DNA of 64,000 nt from Zootoca vivipara (taxonomy: Eukaryota), in NCBI RefSeq assembly GCF_963506605.1, contig NC_083288.1:41788001-41852000 (forward strand), read 5' to 3'. A program made the position numbers and the translations under genes. Below, one piece after another: positions 20,464-62,580 of the stretch; the stretch's first letter is position 1; every line of letters starts with the position of its first letter. The notes under the pieces were generated by a model. The model worked only from the letters and a program-made list of their open reading frames with translations. It was not told the DNA's origin and made no database searches.

Positions 20464-20711
20464 CTAATGACATTGTTATTGAGGTACTCATTCCCATGAA
20501 CAGAAATAGATATGTGTCAGATGTATCAAAGCTATGATATGTGAACAGGAACACTTTTTATTCTTTCCATGTTGCACTGTAAGACACATAGGACAGCGCC
20601 CGCACACACACAACATGCCCGCACACACACAACATTTATGAGATGCCTTCAGGGTGATGGTTTAATGTGTTGAATGCTATGGAGGCAAAGAATCAGTCAA
20701 AGGAGACTGAG
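20464..20711 (+). promoter_or_regulatory. Candidate OR-1 promoter motif and 5' non-coding exon
   Basis: ctaatgacattgttattgaggtactcattcccatg (TAATGA plus paired O/E-like half sites) is homologous to blocks upstream of the other ORs; donor actgag|gtaaaa at 20711. Confidence 0.55.
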
Positions 20712-22220
20712 GTAAAAATGAATGAGAGACGGGTCTGAATGGGTGCAGTGCCAAAATAAAGTGAAGGTAAGAATCTGATTTGCTATAATAAACTTCTTTA
20801 CTCGCTGCTCCAGGGATCTTCCACTGATACCAGCTCACAGTTGTGTCATATTTTATGAATTTGCTGCTTCTTCATTCTGGTTTAGAAAGCTTTGTAGTTG
20901 TTTTCGTATCATATGATGGAGAAACAGGAATGTCTCTTGGCTCATCCATACTGTTGTTTAATATGGATAGCAAGAGCGTCCGTTAATTCTCCATTGTCCA
21001 TATGATGTCCTCGTCTACAAACTTCATCTACAAACTGCCTTCCCAAATATTCCCCCCCCTCCCTTAATCCAGATTTTCTCATACCTTCATGTGTTTGGAG
21101 TATTCTGGTATGAGAAAATCTTGTTTGAGGGAGGGGAAGAGTGTGAGAAAGCAGCAATTTGGGAGCGGGGAACATATGGACTATGGAGAAGTACAGGAAG
21201 AGTACTATTCACATTAAATGACTGTATGGGCTCTTCACATGGTAAAGCTTGTGGGGAGAAAGTGTTGCAGCAGTTGGGGCAGAAAGGGGTTTAGAGGCAA
21301 GTGGAGGGGCAGGAGAGAGGGAGGCAATTTTGTGATTTCTACAAAAGCCACCAGGTGAAATCACTGAAGGTTTGCTTTTTTGCAGAGGAGGAATCTGAAA
21401 GAAAACAAAACAATGAGTGTATGGTGGTTACCACTCATTTTCTCTTCCAACTGCACCCAATCCAATAGGCTGGAGTCTTAGAAAGGTCTACTCAGAAGGA
21501 AGCCCTATCTAGGACTCATGTACATTTCTGCTTGGTCTACCATTTCCCCCTAGGAAAACCAGCACTGAATGGGATCAAATGTAAATCAGGATTTCTATGG
21601 ATTGATGTTTGTTCTGGTGTAGTGCTAAAGAGTGGGTTTTCCAGGGGAAAGCATCTGGGCAAAGGCAAAACTGCTAGGACTCATGCCTAAAAAGCATGAG
21701 ACAAGCACAAAACCACTCAGACCTGTGCTTTATAGGCACAGGACAAGCAGAAGTAGGTCTCACTAAGAGCATTGCAGCCCAAAAAAGTAAGCACCACTTA
21801 ATGCAGAGGAACATGCATAGATGGACTCTTAAGCACACTTAGAAAAGGTCGAGACCACACTTTTAAAACACATCCAATGCATATTTAAAGCACATGACTC
21901 TATTGTGTAATAAAGAATCCAGAAAGGGGATGTTTCAGAAGAGTAATAATATATGGGTTGGATCCAGAGTTATGTTTAGAGTATAAGCAGTGAATTGAAG
22001 ATGTTTCCTATGAACATAACTCTGCATGCATAAATCTCTAAACCTGACTTACGGTAAGTCTGAATCCAACACTAGGATCCAAAGCACACATTTGGGAAGG
22101 AAAATGAATTATTCCGTTAACACCGCTCCCTCAAAGGGCAAACCTGCTTAGCCTATACTCAAACAGGCAAATGATACCTGCTCTTGAAATGCAAAAGGTG
22201 TTTTTGTTCTGTAATTCCAG

Positions 22221-23180
22221 ATGGAGTTGGCCAATGGGACCAATGTCACAGAATTCATTTTGCTGGGATTTGGAGGAGGGCAAAAGAAACATTTGTCGTT
22301 GCTCCTTTTTTTGACTGTTCTTTATGTGGTCACCTTGGCTGAGAACATAATCATTATCACACTGGTGGTTCTAGACACCCACTTGTCACGAATTCCCATG
22401 TATTTCCTTCTGAGCAACTTCTCCTGGCTGGAGATGTGCTACGTATCCACCACTGTACCCCGCATGCTCTTTGATCTGGTGAACAGTCATGGGGAAATTT
22501 CCTTCCAGGCTTGCTTCCTCCAGTTCTACATCTTTTTCTCTCTCGGCGGAACTGAAGGTTTCTTTCTCTCAACTATGGCTTTCGATCGGTACTTGGCAAT
22601 ATGCCACCCATTACGCTACCCACAAATTATGTCCCAAAATGCCTGCTATGCCCTTGTGGCTGCTTGTTGGATTGTTGGCTTTCTGTGGTTTATTATACCA
22701 GTGAGTTTGATCTCCAAGTTGTCCTTCTGTGGACCAAATGTCATTGACCATTTGTTGTGTGATCCTGGGCCACTTCTGTCTCTGGCCTGCCCGCCACTAG
22801 GGAATGTTCCTTTCATCCATCAGATTTTTGTGAAAACGGTGGTTTTCATCAACTTATCCTGCATCATGCTGTCCTATAGCATTGTGATTTTCACTCTGAT
22901 AAAAACTGCTAACGAAGGCAGTTGTAGGAAGGCTTTCTCCACAGTATCATTTCACCTAGTGGTGGTGACTATTTTCTATGGTTCTGTGGCAGGGGTATAC
23001 TTAGCGGATCTAGGTGAAGAAAGCCACTCAGAAGTCACAAAGGCAGCCGCACTCTTCTACACTGCCATCACACCTTTCCTTAATCCCCTGGTCTACTGTC
23101 TGAGGAATGATCAGATGAAAGAGGCAGCAAGGAAGTTGTTCAGGAGAATGAAGAAATGGTGGCGAACTGGAGAACACTGA
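22221..23180 (+). CDS. Olfactory receptor OR-1 (class II, OR6/OR11-like), 319 aa, intact
   Basis: NGT glycosylation site, EFILLGF, PMYFLLSNFS, MAFDRYLAICHPLRY, KAFST..HL, PFLNPLVYCLRN; splice acceptor ttccag immediately before the ATG. Confidence 0.96.
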   Translation: MELANGTNVTEFILLGFGGGQKKHLSLLLFLTVLYVVTLAENIIIITLVVLDTHLSRIPMYFLLSNFSWLEMCYVSTTVPRMLFDLVNSHGEISFQACFLQFYIFFSLGGTEGFFLSTMAFDRYLAICHPLRYPQIMSQNACYALVAACWIVGFLWFIIPVSLISKLSFCGPNVIDHLLCDPGPLLSLACPPLGNVPFIHQIFVKTVVFINLSCIMLSYSIVIFTLIKTANEGSCRKAFSTVSFHLVVVTIFYGSVAGVYLADLGEESHSEVTKAAALFYTAITPFLNPLVYCLRNDQMKEAARKLFRRMKKWWRTGEH

Positions 23181-23257
23181 TGGTGTGAAGATGTTGGGAG
23201 AAGAAAATGAAGCGGAAGACCCAACCAGTCATCCAAAGAGATAAAACTCATATTCTA

Positions 23258-24660: not shown

Positions 24661-24680
24661 GAGGAAGAGCCCCCCCCCCA

Positions 24681-24798
24681 CCCCAAAAATGTCCCTATTT
24701 GCCTGCTATGACTTGGTGGCTGCTTGTTGGAATGTTGGATTTTGTTGATTTCTTATCCCAGTGTCTTTGATATCCAAGTTGTCCTTCTGTGGACCCAA
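24681..24798 (+). pseudogene. Short OR fragment (ICL2-TM4-ECL2 region)
   Basis: atgtccc...gcctgctatg.cttggtggctgcttgttgg...atccaagttgtccttctgtggacccaat is near-identical to 22629-22739 and contains an in-frame TGA. Confidence 0.8.
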
Positions 24799-25322
24799 TA
24801 AAGCCATGAAAATGAGTAACCTAACGTCAACAACAAACAACAACAACAACAACATGTAAAATATTAGGTGCCTGTTCCATAGTAAATCAAAGCAGGGCTT
24901 TCAGATTTTCTTCCTCTGTTCTGAACTATGATGCACACCTGCTACCTGTTCTTTCTGAAAACAGCTAAAAAGACAATAATATAAATGAACGAACAAACAT
25001 GAATGCATAAAATGTCTGTCAAATGCAGACTTCTTTTGTGATACTCTTTTCTGAATATCTTATTATACTGAAACCCTTCATTATTGCTGTCAGCCAGCAG
25101 GGGGCTTAGTATCTCTCTCCACCCAAGAGAACTTAACCATGCAATGATATAAATGAATGAATGAATAAAATGCCCACTTTTAAGTCAAATGCAAACTTTT
25201 CCTGTGGTACCCTTTTCTTCTGAATATCTCATTATACAGAAGGTTTTTTTTTATGTGAATCAGTAGAAGCCTTGGTATCTCTTGCTATCCCGGGGAGATA
25301 CATGGTTTATTCTGCAAGGTCT

Positions 25323-25408
25323 CACAGAAATTGTAATTCTGAATAGGTGATTATCTCCCTTATAATTATCTACTTAATTGTGATTACATGCTACATCTTC
25401 TGCTCTCA
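25323..25408 (+). promoter_or_regulatory. Conserved TAATT-rich block upstream of V2R-D
   Basis: Aligns with 14150-14227 (minus strand); an O/E-like tcccggggag lies just upstream at 25288. Confidence 0.55.
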
Positions 25409-25602
25409 AGGCTGCTGTAGTAACCCTGACAAAAACTACAAGACACAAGGATTCAATAACTATCCCCCATCCAATTTGGTGTGAGGGTTTTTATAAATCA
25501 GATCATGGACATTTTAGAAGGCATAGTCTGAGCCACACATCATCGTTTGTGGGGGCATTCAAATCAGGCTGTGGGACTCAACACAGAACCCAGTAAGGTA
25601 TA

Positions 25603-25862
25603 ATGTGGAGGCAGCAGAATGGGAGTTGTGAAGGAATTCTTCTACAGAAGCTACTGCCATTGGCAGTCCTGGTCTTTTTTCCTCTGGTGGCATTCAAGAC
25701 GCCTGACATCAAATGCAGTGTCAGCAACCCTCTTCCCATTCTCCACAAGTTTTACCAATCAGGAGACTTCATAATTCCCAGCATTATATCTCAGATATAT
25801 AGATTTTCCGTTCCAATCAGTTTCACAACACTCCCTTCTGATGACATCTTTGAAGACACTGT
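25603..25862 (+). CDS. V2R-D exon 1
   Basis: ...LLPLAVLVFFPLVA...HKFYQSGDFIIPSIISQIY; phase-2 donor |gtaagg. The start codon is less certain. Confidence 0.85.
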
Positions 25863-28576: not shown

Positions 28577-29434
28577 ATCATATATGGCTCTCCTGTGGTG
28601 ATAGATAAGAAATCCCAAGCTGCTTTCTATCTCCAAATGTTCCCAAATTTGAAGCTTCAACATGAGACAATTCTCCACATACTGCTATATTTCAAGTGGA
28701 CATGGATTGGGATAATTTCTCGGCACGATGACAATGGAGAGAGGTTTGAACAGAGTATTATCCCCATGTTTGCCCAAAGAGGTATCTGCTTTGATTTCAT
28801 AGTAAGACTTCTCAAAGTGTCTTTTTCCAATGATATTAATGATATGGTGGGAGATGTAATTGAGAAGACTGAAATCATTATGAGGAGCACTGTCATTGCA
28901 TTGGTCATTCATGGTGAAATCGAGACCATGCTCATCATGAGGATATTCTCCAGGGCTTCAGCATATGAGCATATATCAACAAAGAGAAATGGTAAAGTCT
29001 GGATTATGACAGCCGAGATAGAGTTCACTTCCATTCCTCTTCAAAGAGATTGGGACATAGACTTCCTCCATGGTGCTATATCCTTTGCTGTTCACTCCAG
29101 TGAGGTTTTAGGATTCCAGAAATGTCTTTTGTTGAGAAATCCTTCTTCAGAGAAAGACGATGACTTCCTTAGGGTTTTCTGGGAGCAGGCATTTGGGTGT
29201 CAGTTCCCCAACTCCATGGTAGACCTACAGGATGAAAAAATCTGCAGTGGAGAGGAGAAGTTGGAGACTCTTCCTGCATCTGTTTTTGAAATGAGCATGA
29301 CTGGCCACAGCTACAGTGTCTACACAGCAGCCTATGTGGTTGCAGATGCATTGCAGGCCATGCATTCATCTAGATTCAAAGCCAGAATGATAGTAGATGG
29401 AGGAGTAAAGCTTCAGCATCAAGAGTTATGGAAG
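28577..29434 (+). CDS. V2R-D exon 3 (858 bp)
   Basis: IIYGSPVV...YFKWTWIG...FWEQAFGC...CSGEEKLE...LWK; cattag| and |gtaatg. Confidence 0.95.
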
Positions 29435-29789
29435 GTAATGTGCCATATACACCAAGAAGGATCCCACTTGATCAGTCCAAAGCCTTCCTTTACCAGCCAA
29501 CCAGATAGCAATAGTTTTCTCCCACTGTCCCCCCCCCCCAAAATGCCTGGTTTTCAGATGCATGATGTCTGTTTCTTGAGAATGTATAAAACAGCATTGA
29601 ATACTAGCAATAGATTTCCTGCTTCCTAGTACAACATTAGATCATCATTCCCTGAACTTCAGAGCATGGGAAGTCATCCAAAAGATATATAATATGGCAC
29701 TGAATAATTAGCTCTTTTGACTGTATTATAATTTGGAATGCTTTATTGTGGTTTTTATTGGGTTGTTAAATTTCTCGGCGGTGAGAATT

Positions 29790-30203
29790 CTGATAGCACA
29801 AAAGTGGAAGACTGGAGAAATTCCAACTAAAGAACAATGGCAAGAGAAATGGATGAACTATGCAGAAGTGGCAAAATTGACGGACAGACTTTGAGAAAAA
29901 GACAACAGTGACTTTGATAAAGAGTGGGAACCATTTATAACATATTTGCAGAAACAAAGGAAGACTATTGACTTGGTGGCAGGATTTAAATAAAATTTCA
30001 AATCTTTATTAACAAAGAATATTTAAAACAATATCAGAAATTATATAGTAGACTTTTTAGAAACAGCAGTATGTAATAAGAGGGAAACAAACTAGAAGTG
30101 GAAGTTGGGGAAAGCCCAGGAGGGGGAGGGAAGAAGTGATGGAACATAAACGTTATTGATATGAGGTGTACACAATGATAGAAAAAGATAAGTGAATAAA
30201 AAT

Positions 30204-30238
<35 letters not shown>
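29790..30238 (+). mobile_element. L1-clade 3' end with (AAT)n tail
   Basis: Translated MNYAEVAKL...FDKEWEPFITYL, a G-rich 3' UTR and AATAAA; homologous to 39235-39805. Confidence 0.7.
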
Positions 30239-30239
<1 letters not shown>

Positions 30240-30280
30240 GATTACTAACTCAAGGTGGTATGCGCACATCTCCCACTCTC

Positions 30281-30410
30281 TATAGCTGAAGAAGTGTGCA
30301 TGCACATGATAGCTCATACCAAGAACAAACTTAGTTGGTCTCTAAGGCTACTGGACATTTTTTTAAAAAAAATACTGTGTCAGAACAACACGGCTACCTA
30401 GCTGAATCTA
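30281..30410 (+). mobile_element. Penelope-like element terminal fragment with a degenerate hammerhead core
   Basis: ctgaaga-agtgtgcatgcacat-gata-gctcatacc...ttagttggtctctaagg...aacacggctacc. Confidence 0.7.
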
Positions 30411-30534
30411 TGTCAATGATTACTCAGCACAAAGCTTTTCAAGGGTTCTGTAATTATGTGGGGATGATCACCAGTCTTTGGCATATCCTAAAGAATTGCC
30501 TTCATTTTATTTTCTTTACACCCACTTTCTTTAG

Positions 30535-30762
30535 CTTCACCACTTTGTTAAAAGGATCGTATTTAATAATAGTGCTGGGGAAAAGGTTTCCTTCAATGAA
30601 AATGGAGAGCTAGAGGCTGGATTTGATGTTATAAACTGGGTCACATTTCCAAACCAGTCCTTTCAGAGAGTCAAAGTTGGAAAGGTAGACTCCATGGCTC
30701 CCCAAGAAGAAGCGCTTAGCATTTGTGAAGACGCCATTGTGTGGCCAAGAAGTTTTAACCAG
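30535..30762 (+). CDS. V2R-D exon 4 (228 bp)
   Basis: Manual translation LHHFVKRIVFNNSAGEKVSFNENGELEAGFDVINWVTFPNQSFQRVKVG...WPRSFNQ; not in the ORF track. Confidence 0.93.
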
Positions 30763-31075
30763 GTGAAGTCCATTCATATTTTGTAGCATATCCATTACTT
30801 TCAGAATAATATCAGTTCACATACTGACATTGCTCAGTTCTATGTTCTCCCACATCCTTAGTGTAGGTGTGGAAGAATGTTTGAAAATGTAAGTTAAGTG
30901 ACAGCCATTTGAACCACTGTTTCACCATGAAATCTTCACCTGGAAACAGGTAAAGGTATATAGATCTAAATACTTTGATAATGGAAGCCAGAAGAGGGAT
31001 CCCTTTAGTGCAACAACACTGCCTCCTCTCCTACCCACTTTTGTCCTTTACCCTCCCCAAATCTGTTGCAGAGGG

Positions 31076-31165
31076 CATAGCTGCCAAGTTATCCCTTTTT
31101 TTAAGGGATTTTCTCTTATGCTGAATAGGCTTCCTCGCGAGAAAAGGGAAAACTTGGCAGCTATG
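31076..31165. mobile_element. 90-bp hAT-type MITE (second copy)
   Basis: Near-identical to 9448-9537; perfect TSD gcagaggg. Confidence 0.9.
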
Positions 31166-32177
31166 GCAGAGGGCAGGCAGAGCACCTCAAAGAATCCTAA
31201 CATCAACCCTACCTATTGCAAATGAACTCGAGAAAGAAGAGACAGTGAGATGTAATTTGAAGTTCAATAAGGGCCAGACATTTATTAAAGTGTCTTCAAT
31301 GAGATGAGAGCTAATTCTGTTTACCTGTCTCAGTCTCTTCTCCAGGGGTGGATATTTCCCACTCCAAGCGAGTCAACAGAAAACCGTCTGCAGAGCTGTT
31401 GCATGCCGAGGTTCCAAGACATTCCCCCCAATAACTCACACTTCACACAATATTTTAAGTTTAAGGTTTTTGGCATTAATTTGGCCACAACTTTATTTAA
31501 ATACAACTGAATGTGAGTGGTTGCTTAGGCATTGGTTCTTGCCATCTGTCCCCCGCCTGGGACAGATCTGACTCCCACTAGCCTAGTAGGGGAGCCAGTA
31601 GGTAAGCACCCTCTGGGAGAGATCGGGGCAGGGGCCCACGCCCTTGACCTCATCCCTCAGATGCTCCCCTGAGGCTCATGCGTGGCCCTGGCCCCCAACG
31701 GGGATAAATGGACAAACATGTAGAGCCCCAGGATTTCAATCAATCATTTGCTACCTGCAAATTTCCCCAGCAACAGCACACCCACCAATCACACATATGG
31801 CCATCCAAACTGACCCGCCTCTTCAACCCTGGGATGTCTTGTTAACCCTTCCACAACCCATGTTCTCCTCTATGGGGAGAACCTGCTTTGTAATCCACAA
31901 ACCATAAATTGAAAGAGGTGTGGAGGAACACCAAGCCACCCAACAAATTAACTTTGGATGGGAATTGATGTGAAGATGTTGGGATTGCGTTTCCCCAGAA
32001 CCAAATTCACAGGGGTTTTTCTCATATGGAGGTTCTGGCCTTATAGTTATTTGTCTTTTTTTCCTCATTTTGGCAGCTCTGTATGAAGACAGTTCAGGAA
32101 GTTTTCCAGAATACAGTACATTGTTGCTATACAATCTTGCAAAAGAGAACACCTTCTCTTCTTTCATTTGTGGACAG

Positions 32178-32304
32178 GTGCAGCCCCTTTCTGTTTGTAA
32201 TGATAAATGCCCTTTGGGTTACCATAAAGCAAAGAAGGAAGGGGAGCCATTTTGCTGCTATGATTGCATTCTATGTCCTGAAGGGAAGTTTTCCAACCAG
32301 ATGG
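32178..32304 (+). CDS. V2R-D exon 5 (127 bp)
   Basis: VQPLSVCNDKCPLGYHKAKKEGEPFCCYDCILCPEGKFSNQM; |gtaaga donor. Confidence 0.94.
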
Positions 32305-32837
32305 GTAAGAGAAATCATGTACACAGCCTATCAAATGTACTGTCACTCACTACAGATGCACATTTTACCCTCAAATATGCATTTTGTTTAAATTTTCCTG
32401 AAATGTGCATTTTTCATATTTTAATCAAAAACAATATTTTAAAATTAAATCCGGGGCATTTTTTGAAGCAAGAACTGCTCCTCAAAATTTAGAGATGAGG
32501 TAAAATTGAAGGACAGCTGTGCTCTATCCCATACTAGACTGGGAAGTCCTGTTGGGGTGTTTTAAAATATGGAGAAAGTAAAATTCTCAAGAACCCTCAC
32601 CTTAAGTGATAACACTTGGTCTCCAAATCCGAGTTAAGTCCTAAAATCTTGCATGCAATGTGTGGGGTGGCAATTGTGGGGGTGACAGTCGGGGGTGAGG
32701 GTTGGGTGGAGGCAATCAACCATCCCTGAATATGTCACCTTGGTTATATGAGAAGAATGCAGAAGTGTCCTTCAGATTTAAATATGGCAAGTCATAGTTA
32801 GTATTTTGTTTTTAATTTTGTTTTGAATATTTTACAA

Positions 32838-33088
32838 CAGGGGTCAGCAAACTTTTTCAGCAGGGGGCCGGTCCACTGTCCCTCAGACTTTGTGGGGGGT
32901 CGGACTATATTTTTTGGGGAAAATATGAACAAATTCCTATGGCCCACAAATAACCCAGAGATGCATTTTAAATAAAAGGACACATTCTACTCATGTAAAA
33001 ACATGCTGATTCCTGGACCGTCCGTGGGCCAGATTTAGAAGGCAATTGGGCCGCATCCAGCCCCCGGGCCTTAGTTTGAGGAACCCTG
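32838..33088. mobile_element. ~250-bp hAT MITE
   Basis: caggggtcagcaaact...agtttgaggaaccctg; TSD ttttacaa/ttttagaa. Confidence 0.9.
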
Positions 33089-33157
33089 TTTTAGAACAAC
33101 ACAAATTCTGCTGCAAGATATAGAAACCTGATCATGTTGTTTGTTGTTTGTTTTCAG

Positions 33158-34059
33158 ACATGGATGAATGCCTTCCGTGCCCACAAGATCAATACCCAAA
33201 CATGGAACGGGATTCATGTATTCCAAAGGACATAATTTTCTTGTCTTACGGAGAACCTTTGGGGATCACTTTGACCGTTTTTGCTCTTTCTCTTTCTTTC
33301 ACCACAGCTTTGGTGCTTTGGGTCTTCATTAAACACAGAGACACTCCCGTAGTCAGAGCCAACAACCGGAACCTCACCTATACTCTCCTCACCTCCCTCT
33401 TTCTCGCCTTCCTTTGTGCTTTGCTATTCATTGGTCGACCTGAGAAAGTGACATGTCTCCTTCGACAAACAGCATTTGGCACCATCTTTTCAGTGGCAGT
33501 TTCTTGTGTGTTGGCCAAGACAATCATTGTGGTCCTTGCTTTTAGGGTCACCAAACCAGGGTCCAAGATGAGGAAATGGACGGGTAAACAACAGGCCACC
33601 TCCATTGTTCTTTCCTGTTCCTTGATTCAAGCCGTTCTTTGTTGTGTATGGCTGGCTACGTCTCCCCCATTCCCAGATTTAGACACACACTCTATGACTA
33701 AAGAAATTGTTCTGGAATGTAATGAAGGCTCAGTCACCATGTTCTACTGTGTCTTGGGCTTTATGGGCTTGCTAGCCATTGTCAGCTTCACTGTAGCCTT
33801 CCTAGCCAGGAAATTGCCTGACAGTTTTAATGAAGCCAAGTTCATCACCTTCAGCATGCTGGTTTTCTGCAGTGTGTGGCTGTCCTTTGTTCCCACCTAT
33901 CTGGGCACCAGAGGAAAATATATGGTGGCTGTGGAGATTTTTTCCATCTTAACCTCCAGTGCTGGTTTACTAAGCTGTATATTTTCCCCAAAGTGTTATA
34001 TTATTCTGGTGAGGCCTCAGCTGAACAGCAGGGAGCAACTAAGAAGAAGAAATGATTGA
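33158..34059 (+). CDS. V2R-D exon 6 (7TM)
   Basis: DMDECLPC...[11 protein letters not shown]...[18 protein letters not shown]...PKCYIIL; 902 bp, the same size as V2R-B exon 6. Confidence 0.96.
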
Positions 34060-35615: not shown

Positions 35616-36029
35616 TATTATGTAAATGAGCAGACTCTCTATGCCACTTAAGATTAGGTACTGTAAATCTTTAAGAAATTGACCGTTTTATTTTCAACCC
35701 CTTTCCAGACGATCCCTAACATGAAATTAATTCACAGCTGCCACACATGGCTCCACAATTTCACCAAGCTGTGTATGTGAAGTTAGGATTTTTGGTCCCA
35801 ATGTACATCAATTTACTCTTATTTACACTGAGTTACAACCCCCCCCCCCAATTTAATGCACATTTATGCATTGGGGAAAGACTCTTTTGGAGCTCCTCAC
35901 AATCCCCTTTTGTTTTTACCACCCTGAACAGTGTCTTCAACTCAAAATAACAATTGCCTGTGGAATTACCCATGTTTCACTATAGCAAATGAAGATGTTC
36001 CATCCCAAAAGAGAATTTGTTTTAGTGGA

Positions 36030-36236
36030 TAATGAGAACATTCCTTAGAGACCCGTCTCCAAAGGCTGTTGAATATTTAACACCAGCATTCAAGCGTTAT
36101 TCCAGATAAGTCTACCATCTCTTTCTAAAAGACACGGGAAACAACTATATATTTCTTTTGCACAATCTGTGAACTCCAACACAGCCAATGTGGTGAGCCT
36201 TCTGCTGGAGGGATTGACTCCTTGCATGCTACTGAG
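36030..36236 (+). promoter_or_regulatory. Candidate OR-2 promoter motif and 5' non-coding exon
   Basis: taatga-gaaca-ttccttagaga-cccg-tctccaaagg; donor ttgactcc...ctactgag|gtacat at 36236. Confidence 0.5.
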
Positions 36237-36451
36237 GTACATAAATTGATACCTTTAACAAGGCAAAGGAGATTGTGGTAAGAGACCAGAGGGGATCTAT
36301 TTCAATGGGTGGCCCTATTCAGAAATAAGATTATGGGCAAGGAAATGTTGACACACCAATATGGAGCATCATTTGAGACAAAGAGGAAAGTAGGAGAGAA
36401 AGATCTTTACTTACTTACTTAACTATTTATACCTTTTCTACCACACTAATA

Positions 36452-37625: not shown

Positions 37626-38116
37626 TTCTTCTGAAACTTTACATATTTTTGTCCTAAAATGTATAATTCAGCTATAATTTAGCTACCTATATTTCTCTTT
37701 AAGTCTTTATCTATGTGCTATTGACTACTTTATTATGTTCATAATTTAGAGATTCTTCTGATAAAGTGGCCTATATTTTCCCCCTCAATAAATAAATATA
37801 AATAAAATTGATGCAACACAATTACTTGTTATGCCTCATAACTGATATGTAATCTCAAAAATAAGTATATGTAATCTAAAATGAAGGAGGTGGACTATTC
37901 TGCTGCCTTCCTTAACCAGCATGCCTGGTTAGTCTTTGCCTTTCAATGAAAGCAGAGAGGGAGACATTGGTTTGTGGTAGTGTTTTCCTCTAAGCAAAAG
38001 GATTTATTCCCTCAGCACACACCACCCTCAAATGATAAGCTTGCTGAGTCTACAAGCAGACAGGCAGATGAGACTCGCTCTTGGTATGTGACTGTGTTTC
38101 TGTTTTGTGATTGCAG

Positions 38117-39079
38117 ATGGAGATGGCCAATGAGACTCAAGTCACAGAATTCATCTTGCTAGGATTTGGAGGTGGGCCAAAGAAGCATTTGCTGCTCCTC
38201 ATTCTTTTGACTGCTTTTTATGTGCTGACTTTGGCTGAGAACATGGCCATTATCACCTTGGTCATTCTAGACTCCCACTTGTCACGACTTCCCATGTATC
38301 TCCTGCTGGGGAGCTTCTCCTGGTTGGAGATTTGCTATGTGAGCACCACTATACCTCGCATGCTTTTTGACCTAATAACCCTTCATGGGAAGGTCTCTTT
38401 CCAGGCTTGCTTCCTCCAGTTCTACATCTTTTTTTCTCTTGGTTGCACTGAGGACTTCTTCCTCTCTGCCATGGCTTTGGATCGGTATTTAGCCATATGC
38501 CACCCACTGCACTACCCACAAATTATGTCGCAGAATGCATGCTATGCCCTGATGGCTACCTGTTGGATCCTTGGCTTCCTGTGGAACATTGTCCCAGTGA
38601 CTTTGATCTCCAAGATGTCCTTCTGTGGACCAAACGTCATCGACCATTTGTTGTGTGATCCTGGGCCACTTATGTCTCTGGCCTGCCCCCCACTAGGAAA
38701 TGCTCCTTTCATCTATCAGATTTTTGTGAATGCTGTGATTTTGGGCAACTTGTTGTGTGTCATCCTGTCCTATGGTGCAGTGATTCTCTCTCTGATGAAA
38801 ACCTCAAACCAAGGAAGTCGTAAGAAGGCTTTCTCCACCATATCCTTTCACCTAATGGTGGTGACGATTTTTTATGGTTCTGTGGGAGGCGTATACTTAG
38901 CTGCTCCAGGTGGAGAAAGCAACCCAGAGATCACAAAGGCAGCAACAGTTTTTTATGCTGCCGTCACACCTGTCCTCAACCCACTGATCTACTGTCTGAG
39001 GAATGATAAGATCAAAGAGGCAGCAGGGAGGTTGTTGAAGAGAATGGAGAAATGGTGTTGCACTGGAGAATATCGATAG
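38117..39079 (+). CDS. Olfactory receptor OR-2, 320 aa, intact
   Basis: MEMANETQVTEFILLGF, MALDRYLAICHPLHY, KAFSTISFHL, PVLNPLIYCLRN; acceptor ttgcag|ATG. Confidence 0.96.
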   Translation: MEMANETQVTEFILLGFGGGPKKHLLLLILLTAFYVLTLAENMAIITLVILDSHLSRLPMYLLLGSFSWLEICYVSTTIPRMLFDLITLHGKVSFQACFLQFYIFFSLGCTEDFFLSAMALDRYLAICHPLHYPQIMSQNACYALMATCWILGFLWNIVPVTLISKMSFCGPNVIDHLLCDPGPLMSLACPPLGNAPFIYQIFVNAVILGNLLCVILSYGAVILSLMKTSNQGSRKKAFSTISFHLMVVTIFYGSVGGVYLAAPGGESNPEITKAATVFYAAVTPVLNPLIYCLRNDKIKEAAGRLLKRMEKWCCTGEYR

Positions 39080-39232: not shown

Positions 39233-39234
39233 TC

Positions 39235-46104: not shown

Positions 46105-46345
46105 CTCAGTAGTTTTCGATACGTTCCTCCATCCAGCTGAAGGCTCATCACAAATGTTGTGTCAGGATTCGTAGATGGGAACATGTTGCTGTTCCCTCTG
46201 CCTTGCATGGGTGTTCAGTTGTCATATTCATGGGCTATATGAGAAGAATGAGTGAGTCTTTGTATCTACTACAGAAATCCTGAATGCTCATGTTAAATAT
46301 TAGGCGTCCATTGGGAATGTGTCCCTCAAGAACCAATGCCATTAG
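46105..46345 (-). promoter_or_regulatory. Candidate OR-3 promoter motif and 5' non-coding exon
   Basis: Minus strand ctaatggcattggttcttgagggacacattcccaatgg (46345-46308); donor ctactgag|gtaaag at 46105. Confidence 0.55.
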
Positions 46346-48675: not shown

Positions 48676-50050
48676 CTCTAAGTGCTCCACACCTTAACCA
48701 TAGTAATACACAAAAGATTATAATCAGTGTCTTTTCTATTTCCTTTAATGAGTGATCTTGTTTTGTTTGTGATGTGTGTTTTGCTGCTTGTATTTTTAAT
48801 TTTATCTCAAAATAGAAATCCATTTTTAATTTAAAAAATTAAAAAGAAAGAGAAGCACCTTCCAATAATCCAATTTGGAGGGTTCTGGGTGTTAGCAAAC
48901 TAAGATATTATAAATTATAAGGTCTTCAGCAATCTCTGAGGAGTTCTTGCTTTGAAGAAAAACAGAATTACCCTCGATAGGGCAATTCCCGAGCGTGCTT
49001 CCTTTCTGCAATTAAAACCTATGCAAAGCTTTTGAAATAATGCTCTGAACTCAGCATGGCACCCACAACTAAGATTTCCAGACACACACCCTGCAGTGTA
49101 GTCCTTTATTTATCAGTCTCCAAACCCAGTTCTGAGCAGGTGCAATGACAGAATTAAATATCCATGGACCCTAAATACTGAGACTTTATCTGCATCAGGT
49201 CTTTGGATGGCTGGATCAGCTTTCTGTGTGCTGTTGAGTTGAACTCTTTGTTTAGCTTATACGTAAATCCGGCACTGTGTGTGATAATATAAAACGAGGA
49301 GAGGAGCATGCTTCCTTGCCAAATTCTGAGAGAGGACTTGGGGCGAGCATTTCTGACGAATGATGAAAACAAACTACTAGCTATTAAGGGACATAAACTG
49401 GATTTTTGATGGAAGCACAAGATACCTAGGTGGGAACTTGTATCAGAGCTGGAATGCCAACTCAAGAAGGAGGTCGTTCCCAGTAGATTACATGGGGCAA
49501 CCAACATACTATGCCAAACTGTGGCTCCTCAAGGACCATCATTCAACATTAAGCACCCAGGACAACAGCAGTGTCAAACAAATATCTGAGATGTTCTGAA
49601 ACCTGTTGCAGTTTAATTAATGGTATGTATGTATGTTATTTTGACACACAATATTTTGATCAAAATTAATTTAAAAACACAATCTGAAATTTAATTTCCT
49701 AAATATTCCTGTTGTTTTCAGTTAACCCAGCAAAGTAAAAAAGTTAAATGCTGAAACCTTAAGATAATTATGAGGGAAAGGAATATGATATTAAATGTAT
49801 TTACATCTAATTAAATTTGATTAAATCGAATTAATGTATATTTTAGGAGCTATTTTGTTACCATAGGGCTGTCCCTACAATTGAGCAAAGTGCCAAAGGC
49901 TATTTCAGGTGGCAAAATTAGAGGGACAAATGAAACTGTGGTCTGAATTACGCAGCAAGACTTTTAAAAGTGTCAAAAAAGGTTAGTTATGTATGCGACT
50001 ACGGCGGCTCATGTTTTGTTAGCCCCCAAATGGAAAACAAGCAATGTTCC

Positions 50051-50665: not shown

Positions 50666-50667
<2 letters not shown>

Positions 50668-50746: not shown

Positions 50747-50748
<2 letters not shown>

Positions 50749-51384: not shown

Positions 51385-52344
51385 ATGGAGTTAGTCAATG
51401 GTACCACAGTGCAGGAATTCATCTTGCTGGGATTTGGAGTTGAGAAGGAGAAGCGGTTAGTGCTCCTCATTGTTTTTACCATCCTCTACATCGTCACTTT
51501 AGTTGAGAACATCACCATTATCACAGTCGTTTTCTTAGATGCTCACTTAGCCCAGCTTCCCATGTACATCTTGCTGAGCAACTTCTCCTGGCTGGAGATA
51601 TGCTACGTGACCACAACTGTGCCCCATATGCTCTTTGACTTGGTGTCTCCTCCTGGGCTCATCTCCTTCCATGCCTGCTTCCTCCAGTTCTACTTCTTAT
51701 TCTAACTTGGCAGCACTGAATTCTTCTTCCTCTCAGCCATGGCTTTGGACCGATATTTGGCCATCTGCCACCCACTACGCTACCCACAAATAATGTCCCC
51801 AAATTCCTGCTATTCCCTGGTGGCCTCTTGTTGGGGCCTTGGATTTCTGGCCTATATCGTCCCAGCTGCTTTGATCTCCAAGCTAAACTTCTGCGGACCT
51901 AACATCATTGACCATTTTGTGTGTGATCCTGTGCCAATTCTGTCCTTGGCCTGTCCTCCTCTTGGAAATGTTCCCTTTATATGCCAGGTCATCATACATG
52001 TTTTGTTTTTAGTCAATGTATTATTTGTTGTGTTATCATATGGCACAGTCATTTTTACCCTGATAAAGTCCTCTGACCAAGGGAGTCGTCAGAAGTCCTT
52101 CTCCACCGTATCTATGCACCTCTTAGTGGTGACCCTCTTTTATGGCACAGTGGGAGCTATGTATTTAATTCCACATGGAGAAAGCCAACCAGAGGCCACA
52201 AAGGCAGCCACGCTCTTCTACACTGCTATTTCGCCATTTCTGAACCCCCTGATCTACTGTCTGAGGAATGATCAGGTGAGGGAGGCTCTGGGCAAGTTGC
52301 TAAGGAGAATATCACGCCTGCTGGTGACAAAGGGCATGGTATAA
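51385..52344 (+). pseudogene. Olfactory receptor OR-4, full length with a single in-frame stop in TM3
   Basis: ORFs 51385-51705 and 51739-52344 are in the same frame; TAA at 51703-51705 replaces the Ser of FFSLG (TCA in OR-3 and OR-5). Confidence 0.93.
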
Positions 52345-54130: not shown

Positions 54131-54209
54131 TCCACAAAGAGAAAGAGATGCACCTAACTTTTGTAACAATATATACCAGATCTTCTTTGCAATATATGAC
54201 ACCCTAGAG

Positions 54210-55022: not shown

Positions 55023-55413
55023 TCCCCAAGGGTGCTGTTTTGATAAATAAAAATGTATTGTTCCTGGGAGAGATATTCCCAAGATTCATTTCAGTTTCTG
55101 ATTAAAGCTGTAGTCAGCACTGATCAGGGGCATTTGAACTCCACTCTCCATGTACGGTATATCTGGTGATTTCCCCCCCTTTCCTCCAGAACTGCAGGAT
55201 GGTCCTTTATGTCCTTCAAACCATCTGCCTGGAAGACAACTACCAGTGCACAGAGAACACTAACCTCCATCCCAGATTCTGCTGCTGCACTTCTGATGAG
55301 CCAGTGCCGGGTCAATGTTTTAACTCCTCTTGACAACCTTTCCCCCAAATCATGTCATGAACGTCTAGTGAGTTTTTCCTGGATGACAGAGCAGCATTTT
55401 GACTCCTACTGAG
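55023..55413 (+). promoter_or_regulatory. Candidate OR-5 promoter motif and 5' non-coding exon
   Basis: tccccaaggg...attgttcctgggagagatattcccaag; donor ttgactcctactgag|gtactg at 55413. Confidence 0.55.
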
Positions 55414-55857
55414 GTACTGAGAGTGTTGTTATAGTTGTGTTGTGCTTGTGGGCTTCCCACGGGCTACTGGTTTTCCACCTGCTGGGCTAGGTGGGCCTTT
55501 GATGTGACCCAGTAAGGATCTTCTTATGGGAGTCATTGCCAGCAAAAAAGAAAAAAGAAACCTAGGTGGGAACTGTGGATTTGAATGTCATTTCTCACGG
55601 GGTGGGGGGTGGGGGTCTCTGGCTTCTTCTAGGAAATTTAAAGAAAACATTGCAAAATGATTGTGGGGAGAATTTAGAGTAAGAGGAAAGGATCGTGGGA
55701 CATGCCAATGATTCTAAGCTACATCCCGGATTTTAGACCCCAGATTTTATTAAGTCAAAGGGTATGAACCAACTTTTCCCCTTCATGCAACTTGCATGTG
55801 CATTGCTTAAAATGATGGCTGGAAACCCTCCTTTGTGTGACTGATAACTTGTAAATA

Positions 55858-56093: not shown

Positions 56094-56459
56094 TAGGTGA
56101 AATAGGTGCACTTCTAATGGCGAGAAAATATCTATTTCGGAAGGTAATATATATCTCTTTCGGAAGGCACTGAGTTAGTTTGAATTTAAGAATCATTGTT
56201 GTGGTTTAGTTTTCTTCAGGGGACTTTGAAGCAGGAGTTCCAGTTATTTTGCATTCTTACAGGACCCTATTTATTTCCATTGTGCTTGTATACTTGTAAA
56301 TAAAGCAAATGTAGAAGCTGCAACTCAAATACCTGCTGTTCTCTCATCAAAAGGATGGGCAAGGCATTTGGGAATGCATAACAATAGAATGAAGACTAAC
56401 CACTGTAAAACAGCAGCAGCGATTGGTTCTAGGATATAATTCAAAGAACAAACTTTCTA

Positions 56460-57869: not shown

Positions 57870-58328
57870 ACTTTCTAATGTAAATTGTACAATAAATCTC
57901 AAATATATTATTTTATCAAGGTTTTGTGCTGCTCTTGCTTTATCATTTTAAAATTAAGTAATCTCGGCACACTATCAGTTTGGTGTTATTTCTGGATTCA
58001 GTGGTGTTTGAGAGGAGTGAGACTTTCGCAAAACTGGGGATATGCTATTCACTGCAAAGCTCTAGGATATCAGAATTAAATAGCCTCAAAGCAATATATT
58101 TTAAGTGCATTATGTTATATTTTATACTTAACCAGGAAAAATAGGTGCTTTGTGTGAATAATCACTTGTGAACTGTAAAATGGGGTGGGCAGAAGAAATG
58201 TCCCACAGCATTCTGAAATGGCAAGTCTGTATAACCTTTGTTTTTCAATGCAAGCTAATGGTATTTAAACAACTGTATACCTCTTTATGCTATGCAATAG
58301 TGATTATATTATTTGACTCCAGATAGAG

Positions 58329-59282
58329 ATGGCCAATGGGACTGCAGTGCAGGAATTCATTTTGCTTGGGTTTGAAGTTGAACAGCAGAAACAATACTTC
58401 CTTCTTGTCTTCCTCGCCATTCTCTACATGCTCACTATGGCTGAGAACATCACCATCATTGCAGTCGTCTTCCTAGATAACCACCTGGCTCAGCTCCCCA
58501 TGTACATACTGCTGAGAAACTTCTCCTGGATGGAGATGTGCTATGTGTCCACCACTGTGCCCCGACTGCTCTTTGACCTGGTGTCTCCTCCTGGGTTCAT
58601 CTCTTTCCATGCCTGCTTCCTCCAGTTCTACATCTTCTTCTCACTTGGCAACACTGAATGCTTCTTCCTCTCAGCCATGGCTTTGGACCGGTACTTGGCC
58701 ATCTGTCACCCACTTCGCTACCCACAAATTATGTCCCAACATTCCTGTTCTGCTCTGGTAGGTGCATGTTGGGTTGTTGGTTTCATGTGGTACCCTATCC
58801 CAGTGATTTTGATCTCCAAGTTGTCCTTCTGTGGACCTAACATCATTGACCATTTTTTGTGTGATCCTGGGCCCATTTTGTCCCTGGCCTGCCCTCCACT
58901 CGGAAATGTTCCCCTTGTCTGCCAGATATTTATGCACGCTCTGTTTTTAATCAATGTCTTATTTGTTCTACTATTCTATGGCATTGTGATTCTCACCCTG
59001 ATGAAAACCTCTAACCAAGGCACTTGTAGGAAAGCTTTTGCTACCATATCTTTTCACCTAGTTGTTGTCACACTTTTTTATGGCTCATTAGCAGCGATGT
59101 ACTTGATTCCAAGTGGGAAAACTCATTCAGGAGTCAGTAAGGCAGTTACACTCTTCTACACAGCAATTACACCCTTTCTTAATCCCTTGATATACTGCCT
59201 GAGGAATGACCAGGTGAAAGAAGCCGTGGGCAGGTTGCTGAGGAAAAAGGAAAGATGGTTGAGGAGAAAGATGGTAGTTTAA
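58329..59282 (+). CDS. Olfactory receptor OR-5, 317 aa, intact
   Basis: MANGTAVQEFILLGF, MALDRYLAICHPLRY, KAFATISFHL, PFLNPLIYCLRN. Confidence 0.96.
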   Translation: MANGTAVQEFILLGFEVEQQKQYFLLVFLAILYMLTMAENITIIAVVFLDNHLAQLPMYILLRNFSWMEMCYVSTTVPRLLFDLVSPPGFISFHACFLQFYIFFSLGNTECFFLSAMALDRYLAICHPLRYPQIMSQHSCSALVGACWVVGFMWYPIPVILISKLSFCGPNIIDHFLCDPGPILSLACPPLGNVPLVCQIFMHALFLINVLFVLLFYGIVILTLMKTSNQGTCRKAFATISFHLVVVTLFYGSLAAMYLIPSGKTHSGVSKAVTLFYTAITPFLNPLIYCLRNDQVKEAVGRLLRKKERWLRRKMVV

Positions 59283-59898
59283 TAAGGCTGAAGGAAACAA
59301 GTGTCACAAAACACCTAAGCATGTATTCAAATTTATTAAAATGAATGTATTTACAGTTGGAGTCCATAAGGTAGAATAGAACACTTGCCTGAATTGACAT
59401 TTATTTGTATAGTGTGACTTAACCTTCCTCTCTTTCCCCTTGCATAACCCCCCAAAATCTCCTCCAGAGGAACCATTCAAAGCAGATTTTGAGGAGAAGA
59501 TGGCAAAGTCCCTTATGCGAGCAGAAGTCTGATCATAAAACAAAATAAAGCGAATAATCTGTTTTGCAAACTGATGGGAAATAGCACATAAAAAGGATTA
59601 TCTGTGGGCGTGTGTTTTTTCTCCTAAAGTGATAAACTCACTAGTGTGATTTGTGTATGTTTCTGAAATGTTATAAATGCAATAAAAAAATAATTCGATG
59701 GAAACTCCAAACAGGTGTGCCTATATAGGCAGTGTATGTGTATGTTTTAGTAAAGGGTGAACACTTCATCATTTACAATCTGAACACAAATGTAGCATTT
59801 TAATAAACAAACATGACTTCACTTTCTATGTTCTGCCATTTTCTGCTGTTTTCTGTGCACTCCCTGCCTCTAACAGAAAAAGCATCCTATACTCATAC

Positions 59899-60261
59899 AT
59901 GTTGTTGTTATTTAGTTGTTTAGTAGTGTCCGACTCTTCGTGACCCCGTGGACCAGAGCACGCCAGGCACTCCTGTCTTCCACTGCCTCCCGCAGTTTGG
60001 TCAGACTCATGTTGGTGGCTTCGAGAACACTGTCCAACCATGTCATCCCCTTCTCCTTGTGCCCTCAATCTTTCCCAACATCAGGGTATTTTCCAGGGAG
60101 TCTTCTCTTCTCATGAGGTGGCCAAAGGATTGGAGCCTCAGCTTCAGGATCTGTCCTTCTAGTGAGCACTCAGGGCTGATTTCCTTCAGAATGGATAGGT
60201 TTGATCTTCTTGCAGTCCATGGGACTTTCAAGAGTCTCCTCCAGCACCATAATTCAAAAGC
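59899..60261 (-). mobile_element. RTE-BovB LINE 3' end
   Basis: VPWTARRSN.SILKEISPECSLEGQILKLRLQSFGHLMRREDSLE.TLMLGKIEG; (CAA)n tail. Confidence 0.93.
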
Positions 60262-60804
60262 CCATAACCATTGTGTTTGGAATCACATTGTCAGGGTGAA
60301 ATAGGAAGGGGCACCATCACAGATAGAGGGTCCATGTTTCTTCTGCTTTGGACATGTAGAGGGCTGTGCCCAATAACTCTCTTCAATTTCCCCGCATTTG
60401 ACAATGAAGTGATGGTCTAAAATTAATAAATAGCAATTGCCATCAGCATTGGCATCCTGCCGGCTCCTGAAGACACACCTGTTTGGGCAAGCGCTTCCCA
60501 AAGCTGAATTCCTGATGTTATTGCTTGAACTGTTATTTCATTGTTAGGCTTTCAGTTGTTTGTTTTTATTGTATATAGACTAGACATATCACATAATTAG
60601 TTCCTGTATGGTTGCATTTAAAACTAGTAAACAAACAGCAGCCATGGCAGCAATAGGAGATGGACCCCAGATTGGGACCACGATGTTGGGGTATGGGGGT
60701 CTTTTACACTTTCCTCTGAATGAGTCCCCAACCCACACTGCCTGGTGACAATAGAACCTTTAGTCCAAGCAGCATGGGCAAAGGACAGGCACAGGGACAA
60801 TGGG

Positions 60805-60836
60805 ATAATAATAATAATAACAATAACAACAACAAC

Positions 60837-60875
<39 letters not shown>

Positions 60876-61328
60876 TTATTTATACCCCAACTACTCTGGG
60901 CATCTTCCAGCAAAATATTAAAATACAATAATTCATCAGATATTAAAAGCTTCCCTAAACAGGGCTGTCTTCAGATGTCTTCTAAATGTCAGATAGTTGT
61001 TTATTTATTTGACATCTGATGGGTGGGCGTTCCATAGGGCGGGCGCCACTACCAAGAAGGCTCTCCTCTGCCTGGTTCCCTGCAATTTCACTTCTCACAG
61101 TGTGGGAACTGACAGAAGGCCCTTGGCGCTGGACCTCAGTGTCCTGGCTGAACAATGGGGTGGGGCTGGAGATGCTCCTTCAGGTATACTGGACCCAGGA
61201 CGTTTTGGGCTTTATAGGTCAGCATCAACACTTTGAATTGTGCTTGGAAACATACTGGGAGCCAATGTAGTCTTTCAGGACCAGTGTTATGTGGTCTTGG
61301 CGGCCGCTCCCAGTCACCAGTCTAGCTG
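60805..61328 (-). mobile_element. L2 LINE 3' fragment with (TTA)n tail
   Basis: cagggctgtcttcagatgtcttctaaa, ttccatagggcgggcgccactacc: an L2-type 3' region next to an (AAT)n array. Confidence 0.7.
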
Positions 61329-62234
61329 CGGGGCAAACATTAGTCCTTGGAAGAGGCATGCCAAGGAAAGGGGGTATAGCCATGCTTCCCCCTTGACTTG
61401 TTGTTTTAGTGCAGCAACGTTTTAAAAATACATATTAATGAGCCTATGCAAGTTGCAAAAAGGGATCGGACAAATCTGCTAGTTTTGATATCTCTCAGTT
61501 CCTCTGTTTTCCAGGCAGTGCTCCACATTCCTGCATCAGTTTGCATTTTTTAAAAACGTCACCATGAAAATTCAGCAGCATTTTAGTGTTGATGTTTCCT
61601 AATAAACAGACTCCTCTATACAATTATGCCTGCCGTAAATATTTTCCATTATGCAATGCCTTTTATGTTACTTTCATGGATATGTACACTTCTCTTCAAT
61701 GCATTCTTACACACATTATTTGGTTGGAGAACTGCATCACAAAATTTTGTAAAGTGCAAATTTCAAGTGTTTGAGTTCACATATTGTTGTAGAGAATGCA
61801 GGCTGCGTAGGTTTGTGTTAAGTTTCAAACTGGATCAAATTTTTCCCCCACTCCTAATTCTAAAGCAGGGGTTCCCAAATTGTGATCCACAGACTACCAG
61901 GGGTCTGTGAGCTTCATTCAGGTGTCTGTAGAATGTGCATATTAAATATTTGTATTGATTTTAATTCTCTCTCTTTTGCGCCCCCCCCCCAATAATGTAT
62001 TTTCTTGTATTGCACTTTGAATTCTACAGAGTGGATGTTGTAATACAATAAAGTACAAGAAATAAAAGAAGCAATAAAAACACATCTAAAAAGCGTGCAC
62101 CATCTAGTCATAATGCACAATTAAAATTTCTACAGTGCTATATGTAGTTTTCCTTGCTTATTTGTTTGCTTTGTATGACAAAAAAAATCCTTAAGAAAAA
62201 CTCATTTAAAAAACTTATAATGCAGCATGCACTA

Positions 62235-62580
62235 TAATGAAGAGCTGTGAGACCTATGGGAGAATTCTGTCTCCCAAGGGATGGTGTTTCTGTGTATATA
62301 TTGCGCTGTTCTCATTGTTCTTGAGAGAGATGTTCCCAAGGTTCCTTTCAGTAAATGTTTAAAAAACTGCAGCCAGAGTTGGCCAATGGCACTGAAGCTG
62401 TGATCAGCACAGGCACATGGAATCTCCCTTCTATGAAGCTCACATTATGGTCCTTTTCCTTCTTCACGCCATCCAACCTGCATATAAGCAGCATGCCAGG
62501 GCTCAAGGAAGAATGTTCATTGCCCAAAATTCTTGCAGAGGCTTTCTGCTGAATGAGATGATGCTTTGACTCTTAATAAG
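62235..62580 (+). promoter_or_regulatory. Candidate promoter and 5' non-coding exon of a further OR whose CDS is outside the window
   Basis: taatga (62235), a perfect O/E site tcccaaggga (62272-62281), attgttcttgagagagatgttcccaag (62314-62340) and donor ttgactcttaataag|gtacat; collinear with the 55023-55413 block. Confidence 0.5.

What the first reader, a model, noticed from the sequence alone, without database searches (positions are those of the whole stretch)
20464..62580. A shared promoter plus 5' non-coding-exon cassette precedes the OR genes
Seen: about 1.7-3.3 kb upstream of OR-1, OR-3 and OR-5, in the gene's own orientation, is a homologous motif close to ATTG(G)TTMYTGRGDKANWYRTTCCCA (20472, 46337 minus, 55057; again at 62314; a looser version at 36030 for OR-2). 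It is often preceded by TAATGR and followed 200-350 bp later by a donor, usually CTGAG|GT (20711, 36236, 46105, 55413; TAAG|GT at 62580). Each coding exon begins at an AG at or just before the ATG. Established: mammalian OR promoters combine homeodomain (Lhx2/Emx2, TAATGA) and O/E (Ebf, TCCCNNGGGA) sites and have 5' UTR introns. Inference: this is the squamate version, a fixed-spacing homeodomain plus double O/E module conserved while the surrounding DNA diverged.
Basis: partly seen in the sequence, partly recalled or inferred. Interest (0 to 1): 0.7.

Follow-up and report, generated by a model that had tools for sequence, protein, structure and literature searches.

The report
Inherited lizard smell-receptor promoter cassette
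Eight related lizard smell-receptor genes each carry, 1.3-3.3 kb upstream, the same inherited DNA block, which is likely their on-switch and first exon, built from sites resembling those mammals use; it is mostly ordinary, except that one gene likely took over the switch of a different receptor.

Summary
It is a subfamily cassette inherited by duplication, not a general 'squamate' OR grammar. Core: TAATGR (7 of 9 copies), 6 bp, a degenerate O/E-like site, a second one 15 bp on, often a third at about -38; then a homologous splice donor. O/E-likeness beats column shuffles (0 of 5000). Constraint is moderate (identity 0.65 vs 0.51 at fourfold sites; p 0.04-0.11 without indels, about 0.005 or less with). 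It is not the Greek Island composite (1-bp spacing). Transcription was not shown. Corrections: OR-1's donor 20711 is a second donor, its first having lost GT, and an in-frame ATG may make that exon partly coding; pseudogene OR-4 keeps a decayed copy; OR-2 is a chimera carrying another paralog's promoter and intron. The scan noted similar homeodomain + O/E promoters in shark receptor genes before, on unrelated DNA.

The parts
20465..20501 (+). OR-1 core: TAATGA (20465-70), O/E-like 1 (20477-86, 4 of 8), O/E-like 2 (20492-501, 5 of 8)
20679..20711 (+). End of predicted exon 1 of OR-1. The homologous donor D1 (after 20684) reads GC instead of GT; a second donor D2, GAG|GTAAAA, follows at 20711. 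The ATG at 20679 is in frame with the coding exon and would add 11 residues
   Evidence: splicing inferred
22221..23180 (+). OR-1 coding exon, 319 aa, OR11G2-like; AG directly before ATG
36003..36066 (+). OR-2 core: third O/E-like site (36003-12), TAATGA (36030-35), O/E-like 1 (36042-51), O/E-like 2 (36057-66)
36229..36283 (+). OR-2 predicted donors D1 (CTACTGAG|GT, 36236) and D2 (GTG|GTAAGA, 36277)
37977..37994 (+). OR-2 chimera junction: remnant of the paralog-B3-type acceptor. Upstream aligns with B3's promoter and intron; the last 125 bp of intron and the CDS are OR-1-type
38117..39079 (+). OR-2 coding exon, 320 aa
43413..44372 (-). OR-3 coding exon, 319 aa
46099..46112 (-). OR-3 predicted donor D1 (CTACTGAG|GT, last exon base 46105)
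46307..46344 (-). OR-3 core: TAATGG (46344-39), O/E-like 1 (46331-22, 6 of 8), O/E-like 2 (46316-07, 7 of 8); one extra base in the spacer
48933..49435 (+). Decayed cassette of pseudogene OR-4: O/E-like sites at 48933 and 48987, HD hexamer lost, D1 reads GG (after 49388), D2 GT kept (after 49429)
   Evidence: p=0.06; nhmmer E=0.0026
51385..52344 (+). OR-4 pseudogene, one in-frame TAA at 51703
55023..55086 (+). OR-5 core: third O/E-like site (55023-32), no TAATGR, O/E-like 1 (55062-71), O/E-like 2 (55077-86)
55406..55419 (+). OR-5 predicted donor D1 (CTACTGAG|GT, 55413)
58323..59282 (+). OR-5 coding exon; first codon ATA, start at ATG 58329
62272..62343 (+). OR-6 core: perfect O/E consensus TCCCAAGGGA (62272-81), no TAATGR at the usual place (one at 62235), O/E-like 1 and 2
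62574..62586 (+). OR-6 predicted donor D1 (TAAG|GT, 62580); the OR-6 ATG lies 170 bp beyond the window end

Best explanation
The block is an inherited sequence upstream of every intact gene of one OR11-like subfamily of a lacertid lizard, and is likely their proximal promoter and non-coding first exon. Shown: homology, orientation, subfamily restriction, O/E-like and homeodomain-type sites at fixed offsets, and a homologous donor. Inferred from mouse: Lhx2/Emx2 would bind TAATGR and Ebf dimers would bind two or three weak O/E sites in olfactory neurons; transcription would start just downstream; a first exon of up to 140-330 nt would splice over a 1.1-2.9 kb intron to the AG at the ATG. Spacing is fixed because copies descend from one promoter, and weak purifying selection likely keeps it free of indels while single sites and donors turn over. 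In OR-2 the whole unit of paralog B3 was likely joined to an OR-1-type acceptor and coding exon.
For: 8 of 8 intact paralogs, always sense, including held-out B1, B2 and B3; 0 of 62 other ORs (best control score 9.8); only the 9 cassettes score above 12 in 324 kb on both strands. Two O/E-like sites: 0 of 5000 column shuffles reach the observed score. Sites of at least 6 of 8 occur at 13.5/kb in cassettes vs 3.0-3.5/kb in control upstream DNA. TAATGR at -11/-12 in 7 of 9. Core identity 0.65 vs 0.51 at fourfold sites; with neutral indels 0 of 1000 simulations reach it. D1 keeps GT in 6 of 8 genes and both that lost it have a GT donor 27-43 bp downstream; CTACTGAGGT occurs in 5 of 8 vs 0 in 373,705 control bases. 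The pseudogene's copy has the longest branch. Mouse OR promoters need O/E and HD sites in about 300 bp (PMC12547500 passages; PMC3247239 passages). OR-2: each tree rejects the other's grouping (AU p 1.7e-7 and 1.8e-4) and the junction sits at B3's acceptor.
Against: No start site, junction or binding data. Without indels the best neutral window reaches the observed identity in 4-11% of simulations, and 21-33% by the column count. Motif columns are no more conserved than spacer columns (0.653 vs 0.649) and the gapless donor block scores only 0.45. The 18 core O/E-like sites have 3-7 of 8 letters, none perfect; site 1 has an invariant T where the consensus has C. OR-5 and OR-6 lack the HD hexamer. 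Predicted exons hold 2-12 upstream ATGs if transcription starts right at the core. Copies are not independent, the pitfall named in PMC3247239. The AU groups were named after the trees were seen.
Confidence: 0.75

Rival explanations
1. Neutral relic: the block is the best-surviving piece of duplicated upstream DNA and has no function; the real promoters lie elsewhere.
For: Fourfold sites are still 0.51 identical, so paralogs are not saturated; the indel-free null gives p 0.04-0.33; spacer columns are as conserved as motif columns.
Against: Two separate blocks (core and donor) survive in all lineages while most intron DNA does not align. The surviving core is O/E-like beyond shuffles. Loss of D1 coincides with a GT at D2 in 2 of 2 intact genes.
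Confidence: 0.1
2. Functional regulatory block read by other factors: TTCCCA as an Ikaros/RBPJ-type site, CATTGT as a Sox-type site, or TAAT-NNN-ATTG as a paired-homeodomain dimer site (motifs recalled, not from a call).
For: Spacer letters ATTG/AATG are as conserved as the motif letters; the right half of O/E site 2 is often poor; PMC3247239 notes O/E and Ikaros cannot be told apart by sequence.
Against: ATTG is lost in the OR-2/B3/B1b lineage, which keeps TAATGR and both O/E-like sites; a third site is a perfect O/E consensus in OR-6.
Confidence: 0.1
3. The block is a local enhancer of the Greek Island type rather than a promoter.
For: In six copies ATTG/AATG lies 1-2 bp before O/E-like site 1, the register of the Sfaktiria composite probe; composite Ebf halves are degenerate.
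Against: One copy per gene (two at B1), always sense, followed by a donor; TAATGR is 6 bp from the O/E site; the 1-bp register has 2-4 mismatches to the published composite pattern, and 17.5% of background positions have 3 or fewer.
Confidence: 0.05

Closest known systems
Mouse OR proximal promoters with O/E and homeodomain sites (PMC3247239, PMC12547500, PMC5318403; passages read)
   Same: HD hexamer and O/E-like sites clustered in about 100 bp, upstream of a predicted non-coding exon and an intron before the single coding exon.
   Different: Lizard; start site unmapped; sites weaker than consensus; offsets fixed across paralogs, whereas mouse promoters as a set show no stereotyped Lhx2-Ebf spacing (PMC5608512 passages).
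Subfamily-specific promoter homology in chemoreceptor clusters (mouse V1R subfamilies, PMC3247230 passage; MOR262/OR37 promoter work of Hoppe et al. seen only as reference entries, content recalled)
   Same: Members of one subfamily share a conserved promoter block that other subfamilies lack.
   Different: OR11-like genes of a squamate; includes donor turnover and one promoter swap.
Greek Island Lhx2/Ebf composite motif (PMC5608512 passages and supplements 2 and 7; PMC11643329, PMC7804114 passages)
   Same: HD site next to a degenerate Ebf site; B3's O/E-like 2 begins with the same nine letters as the Sfaktiria Ebf half.
   Different: Composite spacing is 1 bp and lies in intergenic enhancers; here 6 bp, per gene, oriented, with a donor.
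Mosaic OR genes from unequal crossover and gene conversion (PMC1995454 passage)
   Same: OR-2's parts have different genealogies.
   Different: The junction is in the 5' intron, at the other gene's acceptor, so a whole promoter-exon-intron unit changed receptor rather than a piece of coding sequence.

Membership tests
Mammalian-type OR proximal promoter | O/E (Ebf) motif enrichment | tested here: met
   0 of 5000 column shuffles; 13.5/kb vs 3.0-3.5/kb; sites are degenerate; consensus string taken from the finding, no Ebf matrix available
Mammalian-type OR proximal promoter | Homeodomain site near the O/E site | tested here: met
   TAATGR at -11/-12 in 7 of 9 copies; absent at OR-5 and OR-6
Mammalian-type OR proximal promoter | Lies within about 200-300 bp upstream of the transcription start | not testable with these tools
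   No reads over OR-3 in three RNA runs of unknown tissue
Mammalian-type OR proximal promoter | Non-coding first exon spliced to the single coding exon | tested here: inconclusive
   Homologous donor and AG at the ATG in sequence; no conserved upstream reading frame, but in-frame ATGs in OR-1 and B1; no junction reads
Mammalian-type OR proximal promoter | Sequence constraint above neutral | tested here: inconclusive
   p 0.04-0.33 without indels, 0.005 or less with indels
Mammalian-type OR proximal promoter | AT-rich with a GC peak at the start; TATA usually absent | not tested
   No composition test was run on the cassettes
Mammalian-type OR proximal promoter | Lhx2/Emx2 and Ebf binding; drives punctate expression in olfactory neurons | not testable with these tools
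   Needs EMSA, ChIP or reporter
Greek Island composite motif | Lhx2 and Ebf sites 1 bp apart | tested here: not met
   6 bp from TAATGR; 2-4 mismatches in the 1-bp register
Greek Island composite motif | Intergenic, not tied to one gene's orientation | tested here: not met
   9 of 9 copies are sense to an adjacent OR
Dispersed repeat | Copies away from OR genes | tested here: not met
   Patterns and DNA searches hit only this subfamily; the DNA search is insensitive to copies under about 74% identity
General squamate OR promoter grammar | Same module upstream of other OR families | tested here: not met
   0 of 62; none above 15 in 800 kb with 66 intact ORs, partly the same genes; flat HD-O/E spacing

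The most novel reading that the evidence does not exclude
OR subfamilies in squamates carry rigid, subfamily-specific HD/O-E grammars that set zone and frequency of expression, and whole promoter-exon-intron units are swapped between receptors at the 5' acceptor, as in OR-2, so a receptor can be moved to a new expression zone in one step without changing its protein.
Probability: 0.25. Interest if true: 0.55.

Novelty: new member of a known kind. Interest (0 to 1): 0.3.

Why it matters
OR promoters are mapped almost only in mammals; five literature searches listed no study of squamate OR promoters, in a library that lacks most subscription journals. If confirmed, the Lhx2/Ebf promoter vocabulary was already used at OR genes in the common ancestor of mammals and reptiles, and these nine natural variants (HD loss, donor turnover, decay in a pseudogene, one swap) form a ready test set for which sites matter. 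The OR-2/B3 pair allows a direct test of whether promoter or coding sequence sets the expression zone. The basic finding is what a specialist would expect.

Tried and rejected
RNA: no RNA holder was listed. Three raw RNA runs of unknown tissue, about 6% of each read, gave no reads over OR-3 or its cassette; this is no evidence either way, and the other three junctions were not examined. A conserved coding upstream exon was rejected: only OR-1 and B1 have an in-frame ATG at their likely donors. The Greek Island composite was rejected. A shared SINE insertion as a marker of the OR-2/B3 link was rejected: the two SINEs sit at different points of the aligned intron. Per-100-bp identities from the global aligner were uninformative, since unrelated DNA also scored about 65-70%. 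Footprinting of other OR subfamilies: the first try on 62 regions showed no enrichment; on 66 genes O/E sites of at least 7 of 8 were 3.1-fold enriched, 2.9-fold after restricting to pairs at 65-78% protein identity and dropping one gene with recently duplicated flanks (8 sites vs 1.3 in shuffles), but not significant with one gene per group (median p 0.29; HD p 0.27): suggestive only. One search showed 6 of 8 planned pairs before a script error. A second possible promoter capture at C13 about 28.65 Mb looks like a tandem-duplication junction and was not pursued. One low-depth contig of another DNA run shows 0 differences in 158 bp over the OR-3 core vs 26 in 1223 bp of six nearby pieces (p about 0.035; only 8 of 2840 pieces listed): weak. 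Genome DNA search with OR-2's last 477 intron bases found only itself, so it is no common repeat, but the search also missed the known B3 and OR-1 homologies. Hoppe 2003, Vassalli 2011 and Plessy 2012 are not held. No other vertebrate genome could be searched, so cross-species conservation is open.
Full report
Setting. The window holds four intact olfactory receptor genes and one pseudogene of one subfamily among V2R-like exons (the V2R label is my recognition, not tested). The nearest named proteins are OR11G2/11H6-like receptors of Lacerta (95%) and Podarcis (94%), so the genome is a lacertid's. A genome search scored 125 of 780 candidates and found nine genes at 67-100% identity: five in the window, OR-6 starting 170 bp past its end, and three (B1, B2, B3) about 260 kb away; the next hit is 49%.

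Observation. All coordinates are right. A matrix built from four window sites alone picked homologous sense-strand sites upstream of B1 (two copies), B2 and B3. Leave-one-gene-out scores were 17.9-45.2 and were reached by 0 of 200 shuffles for each of 8 genes; 62 other OR upstream regions scored at most 9.8; only the nine cassettes exceed 12 in 324 kb. A further 800 kb with 66 intact ORs, partly the same genes, had no score above 15. Two cassette DNA searches hit only the subfamily. The block is real, tied to these genes and not a repeat, but it is not general: HD-to-O/E spacing in the 62 controls is flat, with 1 pair at 6 bp against 3.2 expected.

Anatomy. TAATGR lies at -11/-12 in 7 of 9 copies; 6 bp later comes a 10-mer TCYT-NN-GRGA, and 15 bp after its start YCCC-AA-GGGC; a third O/E-like site lies at about -38 to -46 in several copies and is a perfect TCCCAAGGGA in OR-6. 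The two core sites average 5.2 and 5.3 of 8 consensus letters, yet 0 of 5000 column shuffles give two sites that good. A second homologous block ends in donor D1, which keeps GT in 6 of 8 genes; OR-1 (GC) and B3 (AT) lost it and both have a GT donor D2 27-43 bp further on, and OR-2 has both. B1's distal copy has no donor block. AG precedes the first codon in 9 of 9 genes, and four models from other squamates read F-Q into the same Met, as expected if that acceptor is widely kept (inference). No upstream frame is conserved; OR-1 has an in-frame ATG at 20679 that would add 11 residues, B1 one that would add 14. OR-4, with one stop, keeps a decayed copy without HD site or D1.

Constraint. Among seven genes the 37-bp core is 0.65 identical against 0.51 at 52 fourfold columns. 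The best neutral window in 3.5 kb reaches this in 4-11% of 1000 simulations without indels and in none with an assumed indel rate of 0.08 per substitution; by a column-count measure p is 0.21-0.33 and 0.005. Motif columns are no more conserved than spacer columns. Selection is therefore likely but modest, and seen mainly as freedom from indels. Conserved upstream blocks of seven other subfamily groups hold 8 strong O/E sites against 1.3 in shuffles, but this is not significant once one gene per group is taken.

Expression. Three RNA runs of unknown tissue gave no reads over OR-3; this says nothing. Start sites and junctions are untested.

OR-2 chimera. The coding tree groups OR-1, OR-2 and B1 (bootstrap 100); the cassette tree groups OR-2 with B3 and B1's distal copy (100), and OR-1 with B1's proximal copy (97). 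Each data set rejects the other grouping (AU p 1.7e-7, 1.8e-4; groups named after seeing the trees). OR-2 aligns colinearly with B3 from the promoter through the intron to B3's acceptor; its last 125 intron bases align with OR-1 instead. Two acceptors in tandem suggest a fusion that put a B3-type promoter, exon and intron in front of an OR-1-type receptor (inference).

Mechanism. By analogy with mouse, where about 300 bp with O/E and HD sites drive OR-like expression and mutation of both abolishes it (PMC12547500 passages) and O/E sites are 2.7-3.3-fold enriched before start sites (PMC3247239 passages), Lhx2/Emx2 and Ebf would bind the core, transcription would start just downstream, and a short first exon would splice to the ATG. 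Emx2 and Lhx2 are reported in rattlesnake vomeronasal epithelium (PMC12400810 passage). Binding, start and splicing are inferred. Confidence 0.75. Rivals: neutral relic 0.10, other factors 0.10, enhancer 0.05.

Comparison. It works like a mammalian OR proximal promoter; membership is met for motifs and open for start site and function. It is not the Greek Island composite, whose spacing is 1 bp (supplement 7 of PMC5608512; pattern in PMC11643329). Subfamily-restricted promoter homology is known for mouse V1Rs (PMC3247230 passage), shared paralog promoters are a named statistical pitfall, and mosaic ORs are known (PMC1995454 passage). Five searches listed no squamate OR promoter study; the word 'promoter' does not occur in two squamate OR papers (PMC3342882, PMC12400810). 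All papers were seen as passages only, plus two supplements of PMC5608512; motif logos in figures could not be seen. Earlier scan notes had nothing on this locus and similar HD + O/E promoters in shark receptor genes, unchecked here.

Verdict. A real, subfamily-specific, likely promoter and first exon of a known kind, in a clade where it seems unmapped; the promoter swap in OR-2 is the least expected part. Interest 0.3.

Noticed in passing
window 28577-34056; G000:C13 41.52-41.85 Mb: V2R-like exons lie between OR-1 and OR-2, and the OR11-like subfamily is split into two groups about 260 kb apart (V2R label recalled, not tested).
   Followed up: no
OR-1 to OR-6 and P0001-P0120: The TM6 signature recalled as KAFSTCxSH reads KAFST(I/V)SFH or similar, without the Cys, throughout the printed squamate OR11-like rows (not counted).
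   Followed up: no
G000:C13:41543756 and 41545528 (L028): Gene B1 has two cassettes in tandem, a distal B3-type copy without donor block and a proximal OR-1-type copy; the distal one lies head to head with B3's cassette, 2.8 kb apart.
   Followed up: partly
L048 (-2080 from ATG) and L072 (-608): Two ORs of another subfamily share a block in which TAATTA lies 1-2 bp from an O/E-like stretch, close to the Greek Island composite arrangement.
   Followed up: no
G000:C13 about 28,645,700: An OR's 2 kb upstream region is 95% identical to DNA upstream of an OR only 61% alike in protein, up to 8 bp before its start; a young tandem-duplication junction and possible second promoter capture.
   Followed up: partly
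window 24689-24799: Isolated 37-codon OR fragment, 81% identical to OR-1.
   Followed up: no
window 51385-52344: OR-4 has a single stop, while Lacerta and Podarcis proteins with matching N-terminal and TM6 stretches are full length (P0060, P0063, P0091, P0116), so loss may be recent although its cassette is already strongly diverged.
   Followed up: partly
window 58323-58331: OR-5 has ATA in place of the subfamily's first ATG and would start two codons later.
   Followed up: partly
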